Of a stretch of 64,000 nucleotides of DNA, positions 22,417 through 26,407 are shown in pieces. This DNA comes from Thermoanaerobaculia bacterium. GTDB lineage: Bacteria > Acidobacteriota > Thermoanaerobaculia > Multivoradales > Multivoraceae. The stretch lies in NCBI GenBank assembly GCA_963664405.1, contig OY761158.1:384001-448000 (forward strand), given 5' to 3'. A program made the translations under genes and the position numbers. The notes beneath the pieces are model-generated. The model made no database searches and had not been told where the DNA came from. It saw nothing but the letters and a program-made list of their open reading frames with translations. The first letter of the stretch is position 1, and every line of letters starts with the position of its first letter.

Positions 22417-22514
22417 TCCCAACAAGTGGGTGAAGGATTCGAGTACCCGCCGTAGGAGCCTGCTTCCTAGGCGGCTGTGTCGGCATCTCGGTCTCCTTCA
22501 GAAGAACGTAGCTA

Positions 22515-24226
22515 GTTCTCGTCCGGAATCGTGTAAGTTGTTTTGCGTCAGTGGCTTGCGAGGGAGGCAGGGCTGGTAATTCTCCGCGGAGCTTGATAGA
22601 GTCTAGGTGACGAAACCGTTGATTCTAAATAGCTTACGCCGAGAAGGAGCCAGCCCGAGATGCGACAAGCCGTCAGTATTCAGCCTGATCTCACCGAAAA
22701 GTGGCTCGATCTGGACCATGCCAAAGAACTCGAAGCGATCTCTCGCCTCCTCGACAGGGATCCTAGAATCTACGAGCTTGCGTGGCAAGACCTGCAGCTA
22801 CAGGCTGGAGGCAAAGGCCAGAGCACCGGGGCGCGAGGCATGTCGGGCGAGCAGGTGGTCCGGGCCCTGATCGTGAAGCAGATGGGCGGTTTCAGTTATT
22901 CGGAGCTCGCCTTCCACCTTGAGGATTCCCGTAGCTACCGGACCTTCTGCCGCCTCGGCCTCGTCGGGTGGACGCCGAAGAAGTCGACGCTGGCCCAGAA
23001 CATCAAGGCACTGACGTGCGCCACCCTGGAGGCGATTCACAAGCGAATCGTGGCCCTGGCACTCGACACGGGAGTGGAGCGAGGCAACAGAGTCCGGGTG
23101 GACGCCACCGTGGTGGAGTCCAACATCCATCATCCGACCGACTCCGAGCTGCTCTGGGATTGCGTTCGGGTGCTTACCCGATTGCTCGCAAGGGCGCGAG
23201 GCCTGCTGGGCAGCGAGCACTTCTCGTTCCGCGACCGATCGCGGCAAGCCAAGAGGCGGCGCAAGAAGATCAACGACTCGCGCACCAAGGATATGCGGCT
23301 CCAGCCCTACCGCGACCTGATCCAGATCACCGAGAAAGTCCAAGATTCAGCCAAGGCGGCCCGGAATGTGCTCGCCAAGCAGGGGCCTTCCCAGGAATCC
23401 GGCGCCCGTGGACTCCTCGAGGAGCTCGACTGTTTCCTCGAGCGCACCGCCACGGTCATCGACCCGACACGCCGTAGAATTCTCGACGGCGAAACGGTCC
23501 CCGCGAGCGAGAAGATCGTCTCGATCTTCGAGGAGCACACCGCGATCATTCGCAAAGACGCCAGAGAAACGCTCTACGGCCACAAGGTCTGCCTCACCGC
23601 CGGCTCCTCGTCCCTTGTCCTGGATCTCGTGATCCTCCAGGGAAACCCGCCCGACTCCAGCCTCGCCACGACCATGGTCCAGCGCCACATCGCCAACCAT
23701 AGCCAACCCCCGCGCCAGATCGCCTTCGACGGCGGGTTCGCCTCCAAAGCCAATCTCGAAGAGATCAAGCAGATGGGAGTGCACGATGTCGTCTTCAGCA
23801 AGGGCCGGGGCCTTCAGGTCAGTGACATGGCCCAGAGCTCCTGGGTCTACAAGCGGCTGCGCGACTTTCGCGCCGGTATCGAAGGCATCATCTCCTTTCT
23901 CAAACGCGCCTTTGGACTCAAGCGATGCACTTGGAGATCCTGGCCTTCCTTCCAGAGCTACGCTTGGGCGAGTGTGATCACCAGCAACCTCCTCGTCACC
24001 GCAAGGCACCTCATCAACTGAAATAGGGCATCGCACACCGTTCGATTCACCCCCAGCACTGCTGGAGAAACGGAGCACCAACCCCGCAATACGCCGTCAA
24101 AGCAGCCGAGCCTTCCTGATCCAGCGAACCAGGTACAGAAAACCTGGAATCGCACGCAACAGGCCTCGAAAAAAAGCTCGATGAGACCCGGACACCACTC
24201 TATTTCGTCCGTTTCCGGACGCGATC
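22515..24226 (+). mobile_element. ISNCY/IS5-like element
   Basis: Imperfect TIR GTTCTCGTCCGGAATCG versus GATCGCGTCCGGAAACG; flanked by TAGCTA (22509-22514; the right copy is restored once the IS110 is removed); exact ends ambiguous by 1-2 nt. Confidence 0.8.
22660..24021 (+). CDS. ISNCY-type DDE transposase
   Basis: RVDATVVESNIHHPTDS, EKIVSIFEEH, FDGGF, FRAGIEGIISFLKR. Confidence 0.9.
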   Translation: MRQAVSIQPDLTEKWLDLDHAKELEAISRLLDRDPRIYELAWQDLQLQAGGKGQSTGARGMSGEQVVRALIVKQMGGFSYSELAFHLEDSRSYRTFCRLGLVGWTPKKSTLAQNIKALTCATLEAIHKRIVALALDTGVERGNRVRVDATVVESNIHHPTDSELLWDCVRVLTRLLARARGLLGSEHFSFRDRSRQAKRRRKKINDSRTKDMRLQPYRDLIQITEKVQDSAKAARNVLAKQGPSQESGARGLLEELDCFLERTATVIDPTRRRILDGETVPASEKIVSIFEEHTAIIRKDARETLYGHKVCLTAGSSSLVLDLVILQGNPPDSSLATTMVQRHIANHSQPPRQIAFDGGFASKANLEEIKQMGVHDVVFSKGRGLQVSDMAQSSWVYKRLRDFRAGIEGIISFLKRAFGLKRCTWRSWPSFQSYAWASVITSNLLVTARHLIN

Positions 24227-24228
24227 TC

Positions 24229-25635
24229 CTAAGTAACTTCCTCTGTCTGTAGCGAGCCGCGATCGAGCGGCAGAAGGGAGAAGCCGAGACGTTTAGCGTT
24301 GCGTTTGAGGTTCTTGAGGACACGTTTTCGATACTCGGTCTCGTAGTAGTCCTGTGACTTCGCAGCGTACTCGGTTCCGTATCGGAGCATCGAGTAGATG
24401 ATGCGTGCGAGCTTGTGAGCGGTTGCGGTGATGGCCTCCGGTCTTCCGATCTGACCCTTCTTGCGACGGAGAAAGGCGCCGAGAGAGCTGTGCGAGTTAT
24501 GCAGGCCATTCGCGGCGAATCGCAGGGCGGAGGCAGCCCGATTCGCCGAGGCTTTCGAGCGACTACTCAGCTGCTTGCCGCCGGTGATCTTGCTCCCGGG
24601 ACAGAGCCCGAGCCACGACGCGAAATGCTTCGAGTTGGGCCATCGAGTCATGTCGAGTCCGATCTCACCGATGACTTTCAGTGCCGTGTGCGCCTGAATT
24701 CCCTCGATCGCTGTGAGGTCGACCCCTGTCATGCGGAACAGATGAGAGCGCGCATCGAAGCCCAACCCGGTCCGGGTCTGCTTCTCCTTGGCCTTCTTCG
24801 GTGGGGTTTGTCCGCCCGATTGGTCTTCGAAACCTTCGAGGTAGGTCTCGATCTTCTGGTCGCACTCGCCGACTTTCTGGTGGTAGATATCGAAAAGCTC
24901 CACCGCCTGCCGGAGCTCGAAGAGATGTTCTTCACGCCAATGACCTTCCAGCGCCTTGGCGATCGTCGCCTCGCTGTTCTTGCATCGACCATCTCGCATC
25001 TGGGCCAATCGTTTTGGATCCTGCTCACCCTCGAGAATCGCTCGGATGATCCGCATCCCGGTCGCCCCCGTGATGTCGCTGACCACATGCTGGAGTTTGA
25101 TGTTCATCTGGGTCATCGCCTTTTGCATGTGTTGAATATGCTGGCCTGCGTACGAGACCAGCATCGCGCGCTGTCGCAGGTAGCTGCGCAGAACACAGAT
25201 TTGATCGTCCGGCCGAAACGCTCCCCCCAACAGCCCAAAGGTGTGCAGCTGCTGAAGCCATTGGCAATCCAGCACGTCGCTCTTGCGACCAGGAACCTGG
25301 CGAAGACGATGAGGGTCGACCAACTTCACCTCGAAACCCCGCTCCTCGAGCACCTCCATCAATGGAATCCAGTACACACCCGTCGACTCCATCACCACCG
25401 TGTCGATCCCACACGCCAGAAGATGCTCGGCCAGCGAGTACAGATCCGCCGTGAACGCTCCGAACTTCCGAACCGGCTGCGAATCCCGGTCTTCGGGCAC
25501 CGCCACCCAATGCTCCGTCGCTCCGATATCGATCCCGGCAGCATTCAGGTTGACCTGCTCAAGGCTTGCCGGCAGCTGGGATCGACGGCGCTTCGAATCA
25601 CCCGCCGACCGACGACGCTCTTTCTTCCGAGACAT
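24229..25635 (-). CDS. IS110 DEDD recombinase/transposase
   Basis: GIDIG, MESTGVYW, KSDVLDC (DEDD); FASWLGLCP, ATAHKLARIIY; GAGGAGG RBS. Confidence 0.95.
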   Translation of the reverse strand: MSRKKERRRSAGDSKRRRSQLPASLEQVNLNAAGIDIGATEHWVAVPEDRDSQPVRKFGAFTADLYSLAEHLLACGIDTVVMESTGVYWIPLMEVLEERGFEVKLVDPHRLRQVPGRKSDVLDCQWLQQLHTFGLLGGAFRPDDQICVLRSYLRQRAMLVSYAGQHIQHMQKAMTQMNIKLQHVVSDITGATGMRIIRAILEGEQDPKRLAQMRDGRCKNSEATIAKALEGHWREEHLFELRQAVELFDIYHQKVGECDQKIETYLEGFEDQSGGQTPPKKAKEKQTRTGLGFDARSHLFRMTGVDLTAIEGIQAHTALKVIGEIGLDMTRWPNSKHFASWLGLCPGSKITGGKQLSSRSKASANRAASALRFAANGLHNSHSSLGAFLRRKKGQIGRPEAITATAHKLARIIYSMLRYGTEYAAKSQDYYETEYRKRVLKNLKRNAKRLGFSLLPLDRGSLQTEEVT

Positions 25636-25877
25636 ACATCCTCCTCTTGTGCGCAAACCGCACAGGAGTGGGAGCCGCACACTCTGGCACTCTCCTAAAC
25701 GGGATCACGATCTCTCGTGTCGCCACTGTCTTCTACGCAACGCTCCCAGGACCACGCTAGCTAACGGGCACGAAGCACCAATGCTCTTCCGGCCTTCTTC
25801 TCCCCGTGCGGTGCCAACAGAGTATCCTGACTGCGCACCGTTACTTCCCGTCTCCAAGTCGTCCCGACGTACCTACG
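25636..25877 (-). ncRNA. Putative IS110 bridge RNA region
   Basis: 242-nt non-coding end with two similar modules, CCCGT-TAGCTAG-CGTG and CCCGT-TTAGGAG-AGTG, whose 7-mers match the target and donor junctions. Confidence 0.7.
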
Positions 25878-25936
25878 CTAGCTAGGCTCATCATCTTGCT
25901 CAACTTCTGGCGGCTCTGAATCTTGAGACGACAACG

Positions 25937-26161
25937 GTGCTGGTCTTCGGCGAGGACGGAGAGACGCCTGCCGAGCGCTACTGGGGATTGGGCCACCGAG
26001 GCCGGGTCTTCGACGAGCAGATTCGCGTTTCCCTTGTTTCCTACGTACCAGGGAGCGACCCACGAGTCGTGGACGAGTTCGTCGAAACCGTGGATCTTCT
26101 TCCTACGTTACGTGCCGCGGTCGGGGTTCCGCCATCAGATCTCCACTGCAGGGCCGGATGA
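25937..26161 (+). pseudogene. Sulfatase-like C-terminal fragment
   Basis: GHRGRVFDEQIRVSL..VETVDLLPTL. Confidence 0.55.
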
Positions 26162-26260
26162 TGGCGCGGCTCCCGGGCCATCAGGTCTTCGCCTACGCTG
26201 GACCGGTGGACGTGCGCAAGGGGTACGACAGCCTGGCGGCCCTGGTGGAGCAGGGTCTCG
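26158..26260 (+). pseudogene. IS66 TnpB accessory protein fragment
   Basis: VFAYAGPVDVRKGYDSLAALV resembles the IS66 orf2 DMRKGFDGL motif. Confidence 0.7.
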
Positions 26261-26290
26261 ATTCGGGACGTCTTGTCCGGAGAATCTCGA

Positions 26291-26407
26291 CTCGACCCTC
26301 CGTACCTCCGCTACATCCAGCTCCGCCACCGCTCCCTTCTCGACGAGAACGAAGCCAAAAGCGCGACTACACAGCCGGAATCGCGCGCTTTATGACCGTC
26401 GACAACA
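26291..26407 (+). mobile_element. Remnant right end of a related four-gene IS21 (ORF4 tail + terminus)
   Basis: Encodes LDPPYLRYIQLRHRSLLDENEAKSATTQPESRAL* and ends CCGTCGACAACA; diverged inverted match to about 13089-13205. Confidence 0.85.

What the first reader, a model, noticed from the sequence alone, without database searches (positions are those of the whole stretch)
25636..25877. IS110 bridge RNA with readable target and donor guides
Seen (element orientation, minus strand): pre-insertion target ..CCTAGCT[AG]ATCGCG and circular donor ..ACTTAGG[AG]CGTAGG. The 242-nt non-coding end holds two parallel modules, GAAGA..CA(T/G)TGG-hairpin-CCCGT-[7-mer]-NGTG. The 7-mers are TAGCTAG (plus 25757-25763, target-left + core) and TTAGGAG (25692-25698, donor-left + core). 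GCGTAG (25733-25738) matches donor-right on the same strand. The matches extend across the post-insertion junctions (10 and 8 nt). Known: IS110 recombinases use bispecific bridge RNAs; IS621 uses a CT core and reverse-complement right guides. Inference: a variant architecture with an AG core, left guides 3' of the hairpins, no obvious reverse-complement right guides and almost no right end (the donor site overlaps the stop codon). It is a candidate programmable recombinase.
Basis: partly seen in the sequence, partly recalled or inferred. Interest (0 to 1): 0.85.

Follow-up and report, generated by a model that had tools for sequence, protein, structure and literature searches.

The report
IS110 bridge RNA, mirrored guide layout
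The non-coding stretch in front of this IS110-type transposase gene encodes a folded guide ("bridge") RNA whose two loops spell out the insertion site and the element's own end; it is a real but broadly expected feature, laid out as a mirror image of the well-studied IS621 RNA.

Summary
Window 25877-24226 (minus strand) is a 1652-bp IS110-family element with three identical copies in this genome. Paralogous empty sites fix its ends and the AG core. A 163-nt conserved RNA structure lies at 25817-25655, upstream of the transposase gene. Of its 42 pairs, 37 show compensatory changes across 75 distinct homologues.

The 7-mer in loop 1 (TAGCTAG) matches the left flank. The 7-mer in loop 2 (TTAGGAG) matches the element's right end. 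Across homologues, the loop-1 7-mer occurs in the expected upstream stretch in 45 of 65 elements (about 1.4 with shuffled pairing). The loop-2 7-mer occurs at the gene's end in 37 of 55 (about 3.5 shuffled).

- The long guides do sit on the 3' strands of the loops.
- A short reverse-complement right-target guide does exist on the 5' strand.
- The two bases after the core in loop 1 track the element's first two bases, like a handshake guide.
- The GCGTAG match is a conserved motif that does not track the donor.
- "AG" is the canonical CT core read on the other strand.

The order (top-strand guide first) and a 7-bp subterminal inverted repeat resemble IS1111. The RNA position and the protein resemble IS110. 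No RNA or activity data exist.

The parts
24226..25877 (-). IS110-family insertion sequence, 1652 bp (CGTAGG...ACTTAGGAG). The core AG stands at its right end (24226-24227) and again in the left flank (25878-25879).
   Evidence: 3 identical copies in the genome; flanks; paralogous empty sites; Logan contigs break at 24226 and 25884/25885.
25878..25884 (-). Left target plus core, TAGCTAG. It is flank DNA, not part of the element.
   Evidence: Present left of all 3 copies. It is contiguous with ATCGCG in 2 ISNCY paralogues that lack the element.
24229..25635 (-). DEDD recombinase/transposase gene, 468 aa, ATG at 25635, GGAGGA ribosome-binding site upstream.
   Evidence: Pfam PF01548 and PF02371; NF033542; D36, E83, D120 and D123 invariant in 25 of 25 homologues, GL-P----(T/S)G motif with T351.
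25655..25817 (-). Bridge RNA core (match to model R1, 163 nt): a closing helix, the target-binding loop module, then the donor-binding loop module.
   Evidence: cmsearch 111.8 bits, E 3.4e-32; pair counts.
25750..25794 (-). Target-binding module. Outer stem GGCCG (25790-25794) with UGGUC (25750-25754). 5' loop strand GAAGAGCAU (25781-25789). Inner hairpin UGGUG..CCCG (25765-25780). 3' loop strand UUAGCUAGCG (25755-25764).
   Evidence: Helices 3 and 4 form pairs in 99.2% and 99.5% of cells, with compensatory changes; coordinates.
25783..25786 (-). Short right-target guide GAGC. It is complementary to the core G plus an ideal right flank CTC. This copy's right flank is ATC, so 2 of 3 positions pair.
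   Evidence: Family-wide complementarity to right-flank positions +1 to +3.
25757..25763 (-). Left-target guide UAGCUAG. It has the same sense as the left target plus core, so it would pair with the bottom strand.
25755..25756 (-). Handshake-like dinucleotide CG, equal to the first two bases of the element's left end.
   Evidence: Equals the first two bases of the left end in 42 of 47 elements (shuffled mean 12.8, max 21 of 1000). Equals the first two right-flank bases in only 3 of 47.
25669..25748 (-). Donor-binding module. Outer stem UGGGAGC (25742-25748) with GCUCCCA (25669-25675). 5' strand 25726-25741. Inner hairpin 25700-25725. 3' strand 25676-25699.
   Evidence: Helices 5 and 6 form pairs in 90.6% and 94.7% of cells; 7 of 7 and 9 of 11 pairs show compensatory changes.
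25692..25698 (-). Left-donor guide UUAGGAG.
   Evidence: Identical to the element's last 7 bases. The loop-2 7-mer lies at the gene's end in 37 of 55 homologues against 3.5 shuffled.
24226..24232 (-). Left donor plus core, TTAGGAG, at the right end. It contains the TAG stop codon (24229-24231).
24231..24237 (-). Left arm of the subterminal inverted repeat, GTTACTT.
   Evidence: In the family, positions -13 to -8 covary with a left-end motif: 23 of 33 against 3.0 shuffled, max 8 of 500.
25840..25846 (-). Right arm of the subterminal inverted repeat, AAGTAAC, 32-38 nt into the left end and 23 nt upstream of the RNA model start.
22509..24225 (+). Neighbouring ISNCY-family insertion sequence. Its junction with the palindrome CTAGCTAG was the target of this insertion.
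   Evidence: NF033593, 438.5 bits; 4 copies in the genome; junctions.

Best explanation
Window 25877-24226 (minus strand) is an intact IS110-family insertion sequence. Its 5' non-coding end encodes a bridge RNA of about 163 nt or more. The RNA folds into a long closing helix that encloses two stem/internal-loop/hairpin modules.

Module 1 is the target-binding loop. [quoted passage not shown] It runs on for 2 nt (CG) that equal the first two bases of the element. That fits a handshake pairing which forms only after strand exchange. Its 5' strand carries a minimal guide, GAGC, complementary to the core G plus up to 3 bases of the right target.

Module 2 is the donor-binding loop. Its 3' strand, UUAGGAG, reads the element's last 7 bases, which are the left donor plus core in the circle junction. 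No right-donor guide is detectable. A 7-bp subterminal inverted repeat (GTTACTT / AAGTAAC) may contribute to donor recognition instead.

Shown here: the ends, the core, the structure with covariation, and the tracking of guides by sites.

Inferred from the published IS621, ISEc21 and IS1111 work: the DEDD/(S/T)G recombinase binds this RNA, excises the element as a circle, and recombines the junction ..TTAGG-AG-CGTAGG.. with targets ..TAGCT-AG-...

Inferred from geometry: on the complementary strand the core is the canonical CT, and the loop layout equals IS621's (5' left guide, 3' right guide followed by a handshake dinucleotide). This clade would then carry its RNA and transposase genes in the opposite orientation relative to the chemistry-defined strand, with the long and short guides swapped.

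In this genome the preferred site is the rare palindrome CTAGCTAG, which ISNCY insertions create.
For: Ends and core:
- 3 identical copies.
- TAGCTAG lies left of all 3 copies, and the right flanks differ.
- 2 paralogous empty sites read CTAGCTAG|ATCGCG.

Protein:
- PF01548 and PF02371; NF033542, 260.6 bits against 140.
- The DEDD residues are invariant in 25 of 25 homologues.

RNA structure:
- On a MAFFT alignment not fitted to the structure (43 sequences), 79.6% of cells pair against 68.1% shuffled and 36-48% with slid partners. The covariation score is 0.333 against 0.168, and 0 of 500 shuffles reach it.
- On the model-fitted alignment (82 matches, 75 distinct), 89.4% pair against 69.7%. 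37 of 42 pairs change on both sides. The score is 0.511 against 0.182.
- Invariant G-U and U-G pairs (39:79 in 75 of 75; 28:90 in 72 of 75) fit only this strand as RNA.

Guides:
- The loop-1 7-mer occurs 105-150 nt upstream in 47 of 69 loci (shuffled mean 1.6, max 6 of 200). The loop-2 7-mer occurs at the stop codon in 49 of 67 (4.3, max 9).
- With model-based extraction the figures are 45 of 65 (1.4, max 6 of 300) and 37 of 55 (3.5, max 9).
- There are 58 distinct target 5-mers against 23 distinct donor 5-mers among 75 elements. AG stands at the core position in 72 of 75 target loops and 70 of 75 donor loops.
- The handshake dinucleotide equals the element's first two bases in 42 of 47.
- Right-target guide: 65 of 135 Watson-Crick pairs against 36.2, with 0 of 1000 shuffles reaching it. 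Registers slid by +1, +2 and -2 show no signal; the register slid by -1 keeps a weaker one (52 of 135 against 38.9, 3 of 1000).

Elements outside the model's seed set: R1 hits upstream of ISArsp3 (27.6% aa identity) and of a Streptomyces element. Read by eye, their loop 7-mers plus 2 nt (AAGTGAG|TT and GCGTCAG|TA) match their left flanks exactly, and ATGTCAG and GGACCAG match their right ends.

Published frame: guide strands and loops in IS621 (PMC11208160, passages); handshake guides 3' of the right guides (PMC11208158, passages); guide order reversed between IS1111 and IS110 types (PMC11187229, passages and section 6).
Against: - There is no expression or activity evidence. No RNA run holds the sequence. 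Contigs show no circle junction or empty site.
- The consensus scan finds no promoter or terminator in 25600-25950, so the RNA's 5' and 3' ends are unknown.
- The single-sequence fold is not better than shuffles (z -1.38).
- Rfam has no matching family (best hit mir-611, E 0.92).
- The exact 7-mer was not found for 20 of 65 left flanks and 18 of 55 right ends. Some of these fit with 1 mismatch; the rest were not explained.
- The right-target guide signal is modest, with all three pairs in only 12 of 45 elements. In the all-column scan its z of about 4 is no higher than several scattered correlations that are probably clade effects.
- This element's own three right flanks (ATC, TCT, CAG) fit GAGC only partly.
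- About 100 other TAGCTAG sites in the genome are unoccupied.
- The mirror-image reading rests on geometry alone, not on any cleavage data.
Confidence: 0.88

Rival explanations
1. The RNA is a bridge RNA, but the layout is a mechanistically distinct architecture. The left guides on the 3' strands would act like IS621's left guides on a true AG core. The synaptic geometry or order of strand exchange would then differ. It would not be a mirror image of the canonical CT system.
For: The guide order differs from IS621, ISEc21 and ISPpu10. No right-donor guide was found. The second core position is not matched by the 5' strand, whose conserved sequence is C-A where C-U would be needed. The nucleophile position is T/S rather than S. 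Siddiquee et al. themselves suggest that mechanics may differ where the order is reversed (PMC11187229).
Against: Reading the other strand reproduces three IS621 features at once: the CT core, a 3' guide complementary to core plus flank, and 2 handshake bases directly 3' of that guide which match the non-cognate DNA (42 of 47) and avoid the cognate one (0 of 47 for the donor loop against the element's first two bases). That makes a mirror image the more economical reading.
Confidence: 0.2
2. The conserved structure is only a 5' leader that controls transposase translation or stability. On this view the 7-mer identities reflect DNA-level end recognition, such as internal copies of the ends bound by protein, and not RNA guides.
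For: No RNA or binding data exist. The structure ends 20 nt before the ATG, and an alternative hairpin overlaps its last helix and lies near the ribosome-binding site. A DNA-level inverted repeat does exist.
Against: The loop-1 7-mer matches DNA outside the element and changes with the insertion site: 58 distinct 5-mers, 45 of 65 found against 1.4 shuffled. Internal protein-binding copies of the ends cannot explain that. The guides sit in unpaired loop strands of a covarying, strand-specific RNA fold. The family model is named RNA-guided, and homologous systems have been shown experimentally (PMC11208160, PMC11187229).
Confidence: 0.04
3. The boundaries are mis-set. TAGCTAG would belong to the element's left end, and the internal TAGCTAG would be a repeat of the terminus rather than a target guide.
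For: All 3 copies share TAGCTAG upstream, and the assembly unitig spans 24226-25884.
Against: In 2 ISNCY paralogues without the element, CTAGCTAG is directly joined to ATCGCG. In homologues the upstream 7-mer differs wherever the loop 7-mer differs. Some homologues insert next to unrelated sequence, such as the right end of a sister element.
Confidence: 0.03

Closest known systems
IS621 / IS622 / ISPpu10 bridge RNAs (IS110 group, IS621-like clade; PMC11208160, PMC11208158, 10.1101/2025.05.14.653916, 10.64898/2026.03.19.712850)
   Same: The RNA is encoded in the left non-coding end, upstream of a DEDD recombinase gene. It has two internal-loop modules, target first and donor second. Each loop has a guide that includes a shared 2-nt core. 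The target guide is more variable than the donor guide. A 2-nt handshake follows the 3'-strand guide and matches the non-cognate DNA. There is no target-site duplication beyond the core.
   Different: Here the long bottom-strand guide lies on the 3' strand and the short top-strand guide on the 5' strand; IS621 has them the other way round. In the element's orientation the core reads AG, which is CT on the other strand. The 5' guide pairs with only one core base. No right-donor guide was found. The subterminal inverted repeat is 7 bp and placed asymmetrically, against 2-3 bp flanking the donor. The protein has 468 aa against about 326 and is only weakly similar (E 5.2e-5 to 8WT6). The nucleophile position is T/S. 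No junction-spanning promoter is evident.
IS1111-group seekRNAs (ISEc11, ISPa11, ISKpn4; PMC11187229)
   Same: The segment complementary to the top strand precedes the segment that matches the bottom strand. Subterminal inverted repeats of about 7 bp or more are present. The motif is GL-P----S(t)G, with T allowed.
   Different: The RNA is downstream of tnp in IS1111 and upstream here. IS1111 transposases have 330-350 aa, against 468 here. At E <= 1e-5 the 65 plasmid rows I listed (25 best, 40 spread) named only IS110-family or unannotated features under the match (one row an IS3-like ISEc36 gene); the other records were not inspected. The NCBIfam assignment is transpos_IS110.
ISArsp3 and other long-transposase IS110-like elements of Actinomycetota (the subgroup containing IS110, 395-455 aa, per PMC11187229 section 6)
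   Same: The R1 model hits the same position and strand. By eye they show the same layout: CC(C/U)G, then a 7-mer ending in AG, then 2 nt equal to the element's first bases, then UGG. Their guides match their own flanks and ends, and they have the inverted repeat ATTTTC/GAAAAT.
   Different: Protein identity is only 27-31% and the RNA scores are weak (21-25 bits). In the papers I could read I found no description of their RNA layout. ISAar29 is drawn in Extended Data Fig. 10c of PMC11208160, which I could not see.

Membership tests
IS110 family (sensu lato) RNA-guided DEDD recombinase elements | DEDD RuvC-like N-terminal domain plus a Transposase_20/Tnp C-terminal domain with a G--P----S(t)G motif | tested here: met
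   PF01548 (61.4 bits) and PF02371 (45.3 bits). NF033542, 260.6 bits against 140. D36, E83, D120 and D123 in 25 of 25 homologues. G343-L-x-P346-xxxx-T351-G352, with T in 15 and S in 10 of 25. The motif definition comes from PMC11187229 section 6.
IS110 family (sensu lato) RNA-guided DEDD recombinase elements | Site-specific insertion without terminal inverted repeats, with a shared 2-nt core at both junctions | tested here: met
   AG stands at both junctions. All 3 copies are preceded by TAGCTAG. Empty-site paralogues exist.
Bridge RNA / seekRNA | A structured non-coding RNA in the long non-coding end, with covariation-supported helices that enclose unpaired loop strands | tested here: met
   (37 of 42 pairs compensatory; 0 of 500 shuffles reach the observed score). 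Transcription itself was not tested.
Bridge RNA / seekRNA | Loop segments that track the target and the donor across orthologues | tested here: met
   Target: 45 of 65 against 1.4 shuffled. Donor: 37 of 55 against 3.5. Handshake: 42 of 47. Right-target guide: 65 of 135 against 36.2. A right-donor guide was not found.
Bridge RNA / seekRNA | The RNA is bound by the recombinase and required for recombination, and changing the guides redirects insertion | not testable with these tools
   This needs RNP purification and a recombination assay. No RNA runs are available.
IS110 group as characterised (IS621 / ISEc21 / ISPpu10 type) | RNA upstream of tnp in the left end, with a long left end and a short right end | tested here: met
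   Left end 242 nt; right end 3 nt after the stop codon. Family element lengths are 1631-1719 bp, n=33.
IS110 group as characterised (IS621 / ISEc21 / ISPpu10 type) | Bottom-strand (left) guide on the 5' side of the loop, top-strand (right) guide on the 3' side, and a CT core in element orientation | tested here: not met
   The order is the reverse, and the core reads AG in element orientation. The definitions come from PMC11208160 and PMC11187229.
IS110 group as characterised (IS621 / ISEc21 / ISPpu10 type) | No subterminal inverted repeats, or only 2-3 bp ones | tested here: not met
   A 6-7 bp covarying inverted repeat is present: 23 of 33 against 3.0 shuffled. In the window it is GTTACTT / AAGTAAC.
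IS1111 group | RNA downstream of tnp in a long right end | tested here: not met
   The RNA lies upstream, and the right end is 3 nt.
IS1111 group | Subterminal inverted repeats of 7-17 bp, and the top-strand complement 5' of the bottom-strand match | tested here: met
   However, the right arm lies 32-38 nt inside the left end and does not flank the donor site. The IS1111 spacing was not compared.
IS1111 group | Transposase related over its full length to that of IS1111 (330-350 aa) | tested here: inconclusive
   The protein has 468 aa. The nearest named relative in the plasmid collection is the IS110-like ISArsp3 (27.6% identity). No tree with ISfinder references could be built because no reference sequences were on hand.

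The most novel reading that the evidence does not exclude
The long-transposase IS110 subgroup (this clade, ISArsp3 and Streptomyces elements) may be a third configuration of bridge recombination that the literature I could read does not describe. The RNA is upstream of tnp as in IS110. The guide order, the subterminal inverted repeat and the S/T nucleophile are as in IS1111. The genes are carried in mirror orientation relative to the CT core. Donor recognition relies on a single guide strand of 5-6 nt plus core, together with a covarying 7-bp repeat whose right arm abuts the RNA start. That arm may be a DNA-level protein site or an extra guide. If so, the order of guides is uncoupled from the position of the RNA gene, and this subgroup would link the two described groups.
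Probability: 0.35. Interest if true: 0.65.

Novelty: new variant of a known kind. Interest (0 to 1): 0.5.

Why it matters
Bridge RNA-guided recombinases are being developed as programmable tools for DNA insertion, excision and inversion. So far, detailed rules come from the short IS621-like clade and a few IS1111 elements.

This element gives a fully readable natural example from the large, long-transposase IS110 subgroup. Its ends, core, target guide, donor guide, handshake bases and a minimal right-target guide can all be assigned, and a covariance model recovers the RNA in 78 of 80 homologous loci.

The layout shows that the order of the two guide strands is not tied to where the RNA gene sits. 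It also shows that an apparent 'AG core' can be the CT core with the cargo in the opposite orientation. This is a practical point for anyone who calls guides automatically in the orientation of the recombinase gene.

The small number of programmable bases (about 5-6 plus up to 3 for the target, 5-6 for the donor) argues against special value as a tool.

For this genome, it explains why the element sits at junctions of another insertion sequence: those junctions create the otherwise rare palindrome CTAGCTAG.

Tried and rejected
- Rfam scan of 24000-26400: nothing relevant. The only match was mir-611, 19 bits against a gathering score of 90, E 0.92.
- Single-sequence fold of the 242 nt: z -1.38, and the minimum-energy fold differs from the comparative structure. 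I did not use it.
- RNAalifold on the whole left-end alignment: it found the loop-1 stems and the closing helix but missed the donor-loop outer stem, because MAFFT misaligned it.
- My own column-pair scan: it gave only repeats of the UGGUG/CCCG motifs. I replaced it with a hand-drawn structure and model R1.
- A proposed 3-bp helix (A3 columns 84-86 with 159-161): only 42.6% of cells paired, so I dropped it from the model.
- Search for a right-donor guide in the 5' strand of loop 2: no pairing with the element's first bases (21 of 84 against 19.8 shuffled) or with the right flank (50 of 135 against 54.8) in any of three registers.
- Donor-loop bases after the core as a handshake to the right flank: 5 of 47, not above chance.
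- The all-column covariation scan also lists about 30 scattered correlations at z of about 4-5. I take these to be clade effects and did not interpret them.
- Promoter and terminator scan: none found in the window. A TAnnnT hexamer starts 10 nt before the model start in 26 of 72 homologues, and a TTG 16-19 nt upstream of such a hexamer occurs in 12 of 72. This suggests an internal promoter in relatives, but it is not convincing for this copy.
- RNA evidence: no RNA holder is listed.
- Contigs of 4 runs from 2 studies (X1, X2, X3, X6) showed no joint, so neither an empty site nor a circle junction.
- Literature. I searched for descriptions of this layout. I read passages of PMC11208160, PMC11208158, PMC11187229 (plus its section 6), 10.64898/2026.10.21.760802 (plus its section 8), 10.64898/2026.03.19.712850, 10.1101/2025.05.14.653916 and 10.1101/2024.06.21.599552. 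None of the text I saw describes an upstream RNA with the top-strand guide first. Figures and supplements were not visible: Extended Data Fig. 10c of PMC11208160 with ISAar29, the supplementary tree of PMC11187229, and Fig. S12 of the 2026 preprint. Any of them may already show it.
- No phylogeny against ISfinder references, no structure prediction and no complex prediction was run.
Full report
**What is there.** On the minus strand, window 25635-24229 encodes a 468-aa protein. It carries the Pfam domains DEDD_Tnp_IS110 and Transposase_20. It scores 260.6 bits (cut-off 140) against NCBIfam NF033542, 'IS110 family RNA-guided transposase'. The four DEDD residues (D36, E83, D120, D123) are invariant in 25 of 25 aligned homologues. 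The C-terminal motif reads G343-L-x-P346-xxxx-T351-G352, with T in 15 and S in 10 of 25. The only solved relative is IS621, and the similarity is weak (E 5.2e-5).

**Ends and core.** The genome holds three copies at 100% identity. They share window 25884/25885 down to 24226. All three are preceded by TAGCTAG and followed by different sequence: ATCGCG, TCTCGG, CAGACG.

The window copy abuts an ISNCY-family insertion sequence at 22509-24225 (NF033593, 438.5 bits; 4 copies). Two other copies of that ISNCY element carry CTAGCTAG joined directly to ATCGCG. These serve as paralogous empty sites. They show that the inserted segment is CGTAGG...ACTTAGGAG (25877-24226, 1652 bp). Only the dinucleotide AG is common to both junctions.

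A second copy (L002) sits at the other end of a further ISNCY copy. The third copy is not next to one. TAGCTAG occurs 51+55 times in 6.78 Mb, whereas the same letters read backwards occur 1162+1145 times. The target is therefore a rare word, and ISNCY junctions supply it as the palindrome CTAGCTAG.

**Relatives.** The protein has thousands of relatives (8000 scored hits, the best at 73-75% identity). A scan of one genome per species confirmed 587 of 600 pattern-matching stretches as relatives. The best 80 loci were kept, at 52-68% identity. They come from Dehalococcoidia, cyanobacteria, delta- and gammaproteobacteria, Planctomycetota and Acidobacteriota. In the plasmid collection 419 records match, including Bradyrhizobium, Nostoc, and Citrobacter and Enterobacter plasmids at about 52% identity.

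**The RNA.** Aligning the 400 nt upstream of these genes shows a strongly conserved pattern:
- GACCG, about 9 nt, UGGUG, 4-9 nt, CCCG, [N, 5 variable nt, AG, 2 nt], UGGUC
- then ..AUCAU, UGGUGAC, a variable hairpin, GAUCCCG, [U, 5 variable nt, AG] ..

I drew a structure from this. It has a closing helix, an outer stem and inner hairpin for module 1, and an outer stem and inner hairpin for module 2.

On the MAFFT alignment, which was not fitted to the structure (43 sequences), 79.6% of cells pair. The shuffled figure is 68.1%, and with slid partners it is 36-48%. The covariation score is 0.333 against 0.168, and 0 of 500 shuffles reach it.

A covariance model (R1, 163 positions, 42 pairs) finds the RNA in 82 places across 83 sources. 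These include the window at 25817-25655 (111.8 bits, E 3.4e-32), both other genome copies, and 78 of the 80 homologous loci. It was not found in L029 or L085, and it was found twice in L052.

On that fitted alignment (75 distinct rows), 89.4% of cells pair against 69.7% shuffled. 37 of 42 pairs change on both sides. The score is 0.511 against 0.182. A fitted alignment leans towards the model, which is why the unfitted count is given first. Near-invariant G-U pairs fit only the transposase-sense strand as RNA. Only the three copies of this element match R1 in the genome, although 17 places match the IS110 protein model.

**Do the loop 7-mers track the sites?** Yes.
- With guides taken from the MAFFT alignment, the loop-1 7-mer occurs exactly 105-150 nt upstream in 47 of 69 loci that have enough flank. 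With guides dealt to other loci the mean is 1.6 and the maximum 6 of 200 shuffles.
- The loop-2 7-mer occurs within -10 to +55 of the stop codon in 49 of 67 (shuffled 4.3, max 9). L029 and L085 were left out because their upstream regions did not align. L001 and L003 were left out as duplicates.
- With guides taken from the model alignment, the figures are 45 of 65 (1.4, max 6 of 300) and 37 of 55 (3.5, max 9).
- The misses are real. Some fit with one mismatch, and the others I did not explain.
- Among 75 distinct elements there are 58 different target 5-mers but only 23 donor 5-mers. AG stands at the core position in 72 of 75 target loops and 70 of 75 donor loops.

**Further guide segments.** Boundaries defined by the 7-mers leave the neighbouring bases free for testing.
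- The two bases after the core in loop 1 equal the first two bases of the element in 42 of 47 cases (shuffled 12.8, max 21 of 1000). They equal the right flank in only 3 of 47.
- The 5' strand of loop 1 ends in NNN-C-A-Y. The C faces the core G. The three N pair with right-flank positions +1 to +3 in 65 of 135 cells by Watson-Crick rules, against 36.2 shuffled (0 of 1000 shuffles). All three pair in 12 of 45 elements against 1.4. Registers slid by +1, +2 or -2 show nothing, and the register slid by -1 keeps a weaker signal (52 of 135 against 38.9, 3 of 1000 shuffles). This signal is modest. In the all-column scan its z of about 4 is matched by scattered correlations that I regard as clade effects.
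- For the window element this guide is GAGC (25786-25783), with an ideal right flank of CTC. The three copies have ATC, TCT and CAG.
- The 5' strand of loop 2 (conserved ..AUCAU) pairs with neither the element's start nor the right flank. The two bases after the core in loop 2 match the right flank in 5 of 47 and the element's own start in 0 of 47.

**A covarying inverted repeat.** Positions -13 to -8 before the right end lie directly left of the donor guide match. They are the reverse complement of a motif 33-46 nt inside the left end in 23 of 33 elements (shuffled 3.0, max 8 of 500). In the window the arms are GTTACTT (24237-24231) and AAGTAAC (25846-25840). The right arm lies 16-43 nt upstream of the model start, next to a -35-like TTGnnn in many relatives. 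Without a mapped 5' end I cannot say whether it acts as DNA or as part of the RNA.

**Elements not used for the model.** R1 also hits upstream of four plasmid-borne relatives: the Citrobacter element (62.3 bits), ISArsp3 of Arthrobacter (27.6% protein identity; 24.6 bits, E 1.6e-6), a Streptomyces element (21.3 bits) and, weakly, a Chondrinema element (15.5 bits, E 0.00098).

Reading by eye:
- ISArsp3 has ..CCUG-U-AAGUGAG-UU-UGG, and its left flank reads ..GAAGTGAG|TTTCTC. Its loop 2 has ATGTCAG, and its right end reads ..TCATGTCAG|AGGGG.
- The Streptomyces element has GCGTCAG-TA with flank ..ACGCGTCAG|TAATCC, and GGACCAG with right end ..TCGGACCAG|AGGG.
- Both carry ATTTTC/GAAAAT as the inverted repeat.
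- The Citrobacter element has AA at the core position and one mismatch in each guide.

The layout therefore belongs to the whole long-transposase IS110 subgroup, not only to this clade.

**Comparison with what is known.**
[quoted passage not shown] Both include the CT core (PMC11208160, passages).
- The handshake guides lie directly 3' of the right guides. They pair with positions 6-7 of the non-cognate DNA only after strand exchange, and pairing with the cognate DNA blocks the reaction (PMC11208158, passages).
- ISPpu10 and IS622 follow the same logic with CT cores.
[quoted passage not shown] They also report that IS1111 elements have subterminal inverted repeats and a downstream RNA, and that their motif allows S or T before G (PMC11187229, passages and section 6).

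Here the RNA is upstream, as in IS110. The order (top-strand guide first), the repeat and the T/S are as in IS1111.

My reading is an inference from geometry only. On the complementary strand the core is CT. The 5' strand then becomes a short left guide. The 3' strand becomes a right guide followed by a handshake dinucleotide, which is exactly the IS621 arrangement. On this reading the clade carries its genes in the opposite orientation relative to the strand on which the chemistry is defined, with the long and short guides exchanged.

**Novelty.** Large surveys have predicted bridge RNAs for 85.7% of ISfinder IS110 elements (PMC11208160). A 2026 preprint built 86 covariance models over 32,190 loci, many 'visibly deviating' from IS621 (10.64898/2026.10.21.760802, section 8). 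This RNA has therefore very probably been catalogued.

In the text I could read, nobody describes an upstream RNA with the top-strand guide first, the asymmetric 7-bp repeat, or the mirror reading of an AG core. I file it as a variant of a known kind, with that caveat.

**What is missing.** No transcript, no circle and no activity has been shown. No RNA run holds the sequence. The DNA contigs show neither an empty site nor a circle junction. No promoter or terminator is recognisable in this copy.

Noticed in passing
window 22509-24225 (+); also G000 2971458-2973173, 2985139-2986855, 5435865-5437595: An ISNCY-family insertion sequence of 1717 bp with 4 copies. Where I read the junctions (one end of 3 copies, the other end of 1) they carry the palindrome CTAGCTAG. 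Two of the three IS110 copies are inserted exactly at such junctions, so one insertion sequence creates the target of the other. The window insertion separates ...CGCGAT from CTAGCTAG and may have cut the ISNCY terminus.
   Followed up: partly
whole genome: TAGCTAG occurs 106 times on both strands, against 2307 for the same letters read backwards. This is about 20-fold avoidance of the CTAG-containing word. About 100 sites are unoccupied by the element.
   Followed up: no
L014, L017, L037, L055, L074 (Dehalococcoidia genomes): Sister elements of this family sit head to tail. The target guide of one equals the right end of another: L014 targets GTTAGTCCATAG, which is the right end of L074-type elements, and L074 targets GTTAGTGGGGAG, the right end of L014. 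Several share the same right flank, GTCTCGCAGATGG. These look like mutually targeting elements that build tandem arrays. In 3 to 4 of 45 elements the left target looks like a family right end.
   Followed up: partly
window 25840-25846 and 24231-24237 (-); homologous loci: A covarying 6-7 bp subterminal inverted repeat with asymmetric spacing. The left arm touches the donor guide match, and the right arm lies 32-38 nt inside the left end, next to a -35-like TTGnnn in relatives. Its function is unknown.
   Followed up: partly
window protein residue T351 (codon near window 24583-24585, -): In this family the position corresponding to the catalytic serine of the G--P----S(t)G motif is Thr in 15 and Ser in 10 of 25 homologues. 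The window protein has Thr.
   Followed up: no
window 25640-25665 (-): The hairpin UGUGCG-GUUUG-CGCACA, just upstream of the GGAGGA ribosome-binding site, overlaps the 3' strand of the RNA's closing helix (GUGCGGU). The two pairings exclude each other, so this may be a switch between guide RNA and mRNA leader.
   Followed up: no
L086 (Citrobacter koseri plasmid NZ_CP026698.1, 2307-2447 and flanks): A 52%-identical relative is widespread on Citrobacter and Enterobacter plasmids (61 and 21 records). It has AA instead of AG at the core position of both loops and one mismatch between each guide and its site in this copy. It lies between sopA and an IS66 element.
   Followed up: partly
G000: The genome has 17 matches to the IS110 transposase model, in several other subfamilies (for example 5488127-5489116 and 3365830-3366816, some multi-copy). 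None of them carries the R1 RNA.
   Followed up: no
homologous loci, 10 nt upstream of the RNA model start: A TAnnnT hexamer starts at -10 relative to the model start in 26 of 72 and at -5 in 13 of 72 elements. This suggests a promoter internal to the left end rather than one that spans the circle junction. The window copy has only TACTCT there, and the scan tool found no promoter.
   Followed up: partly
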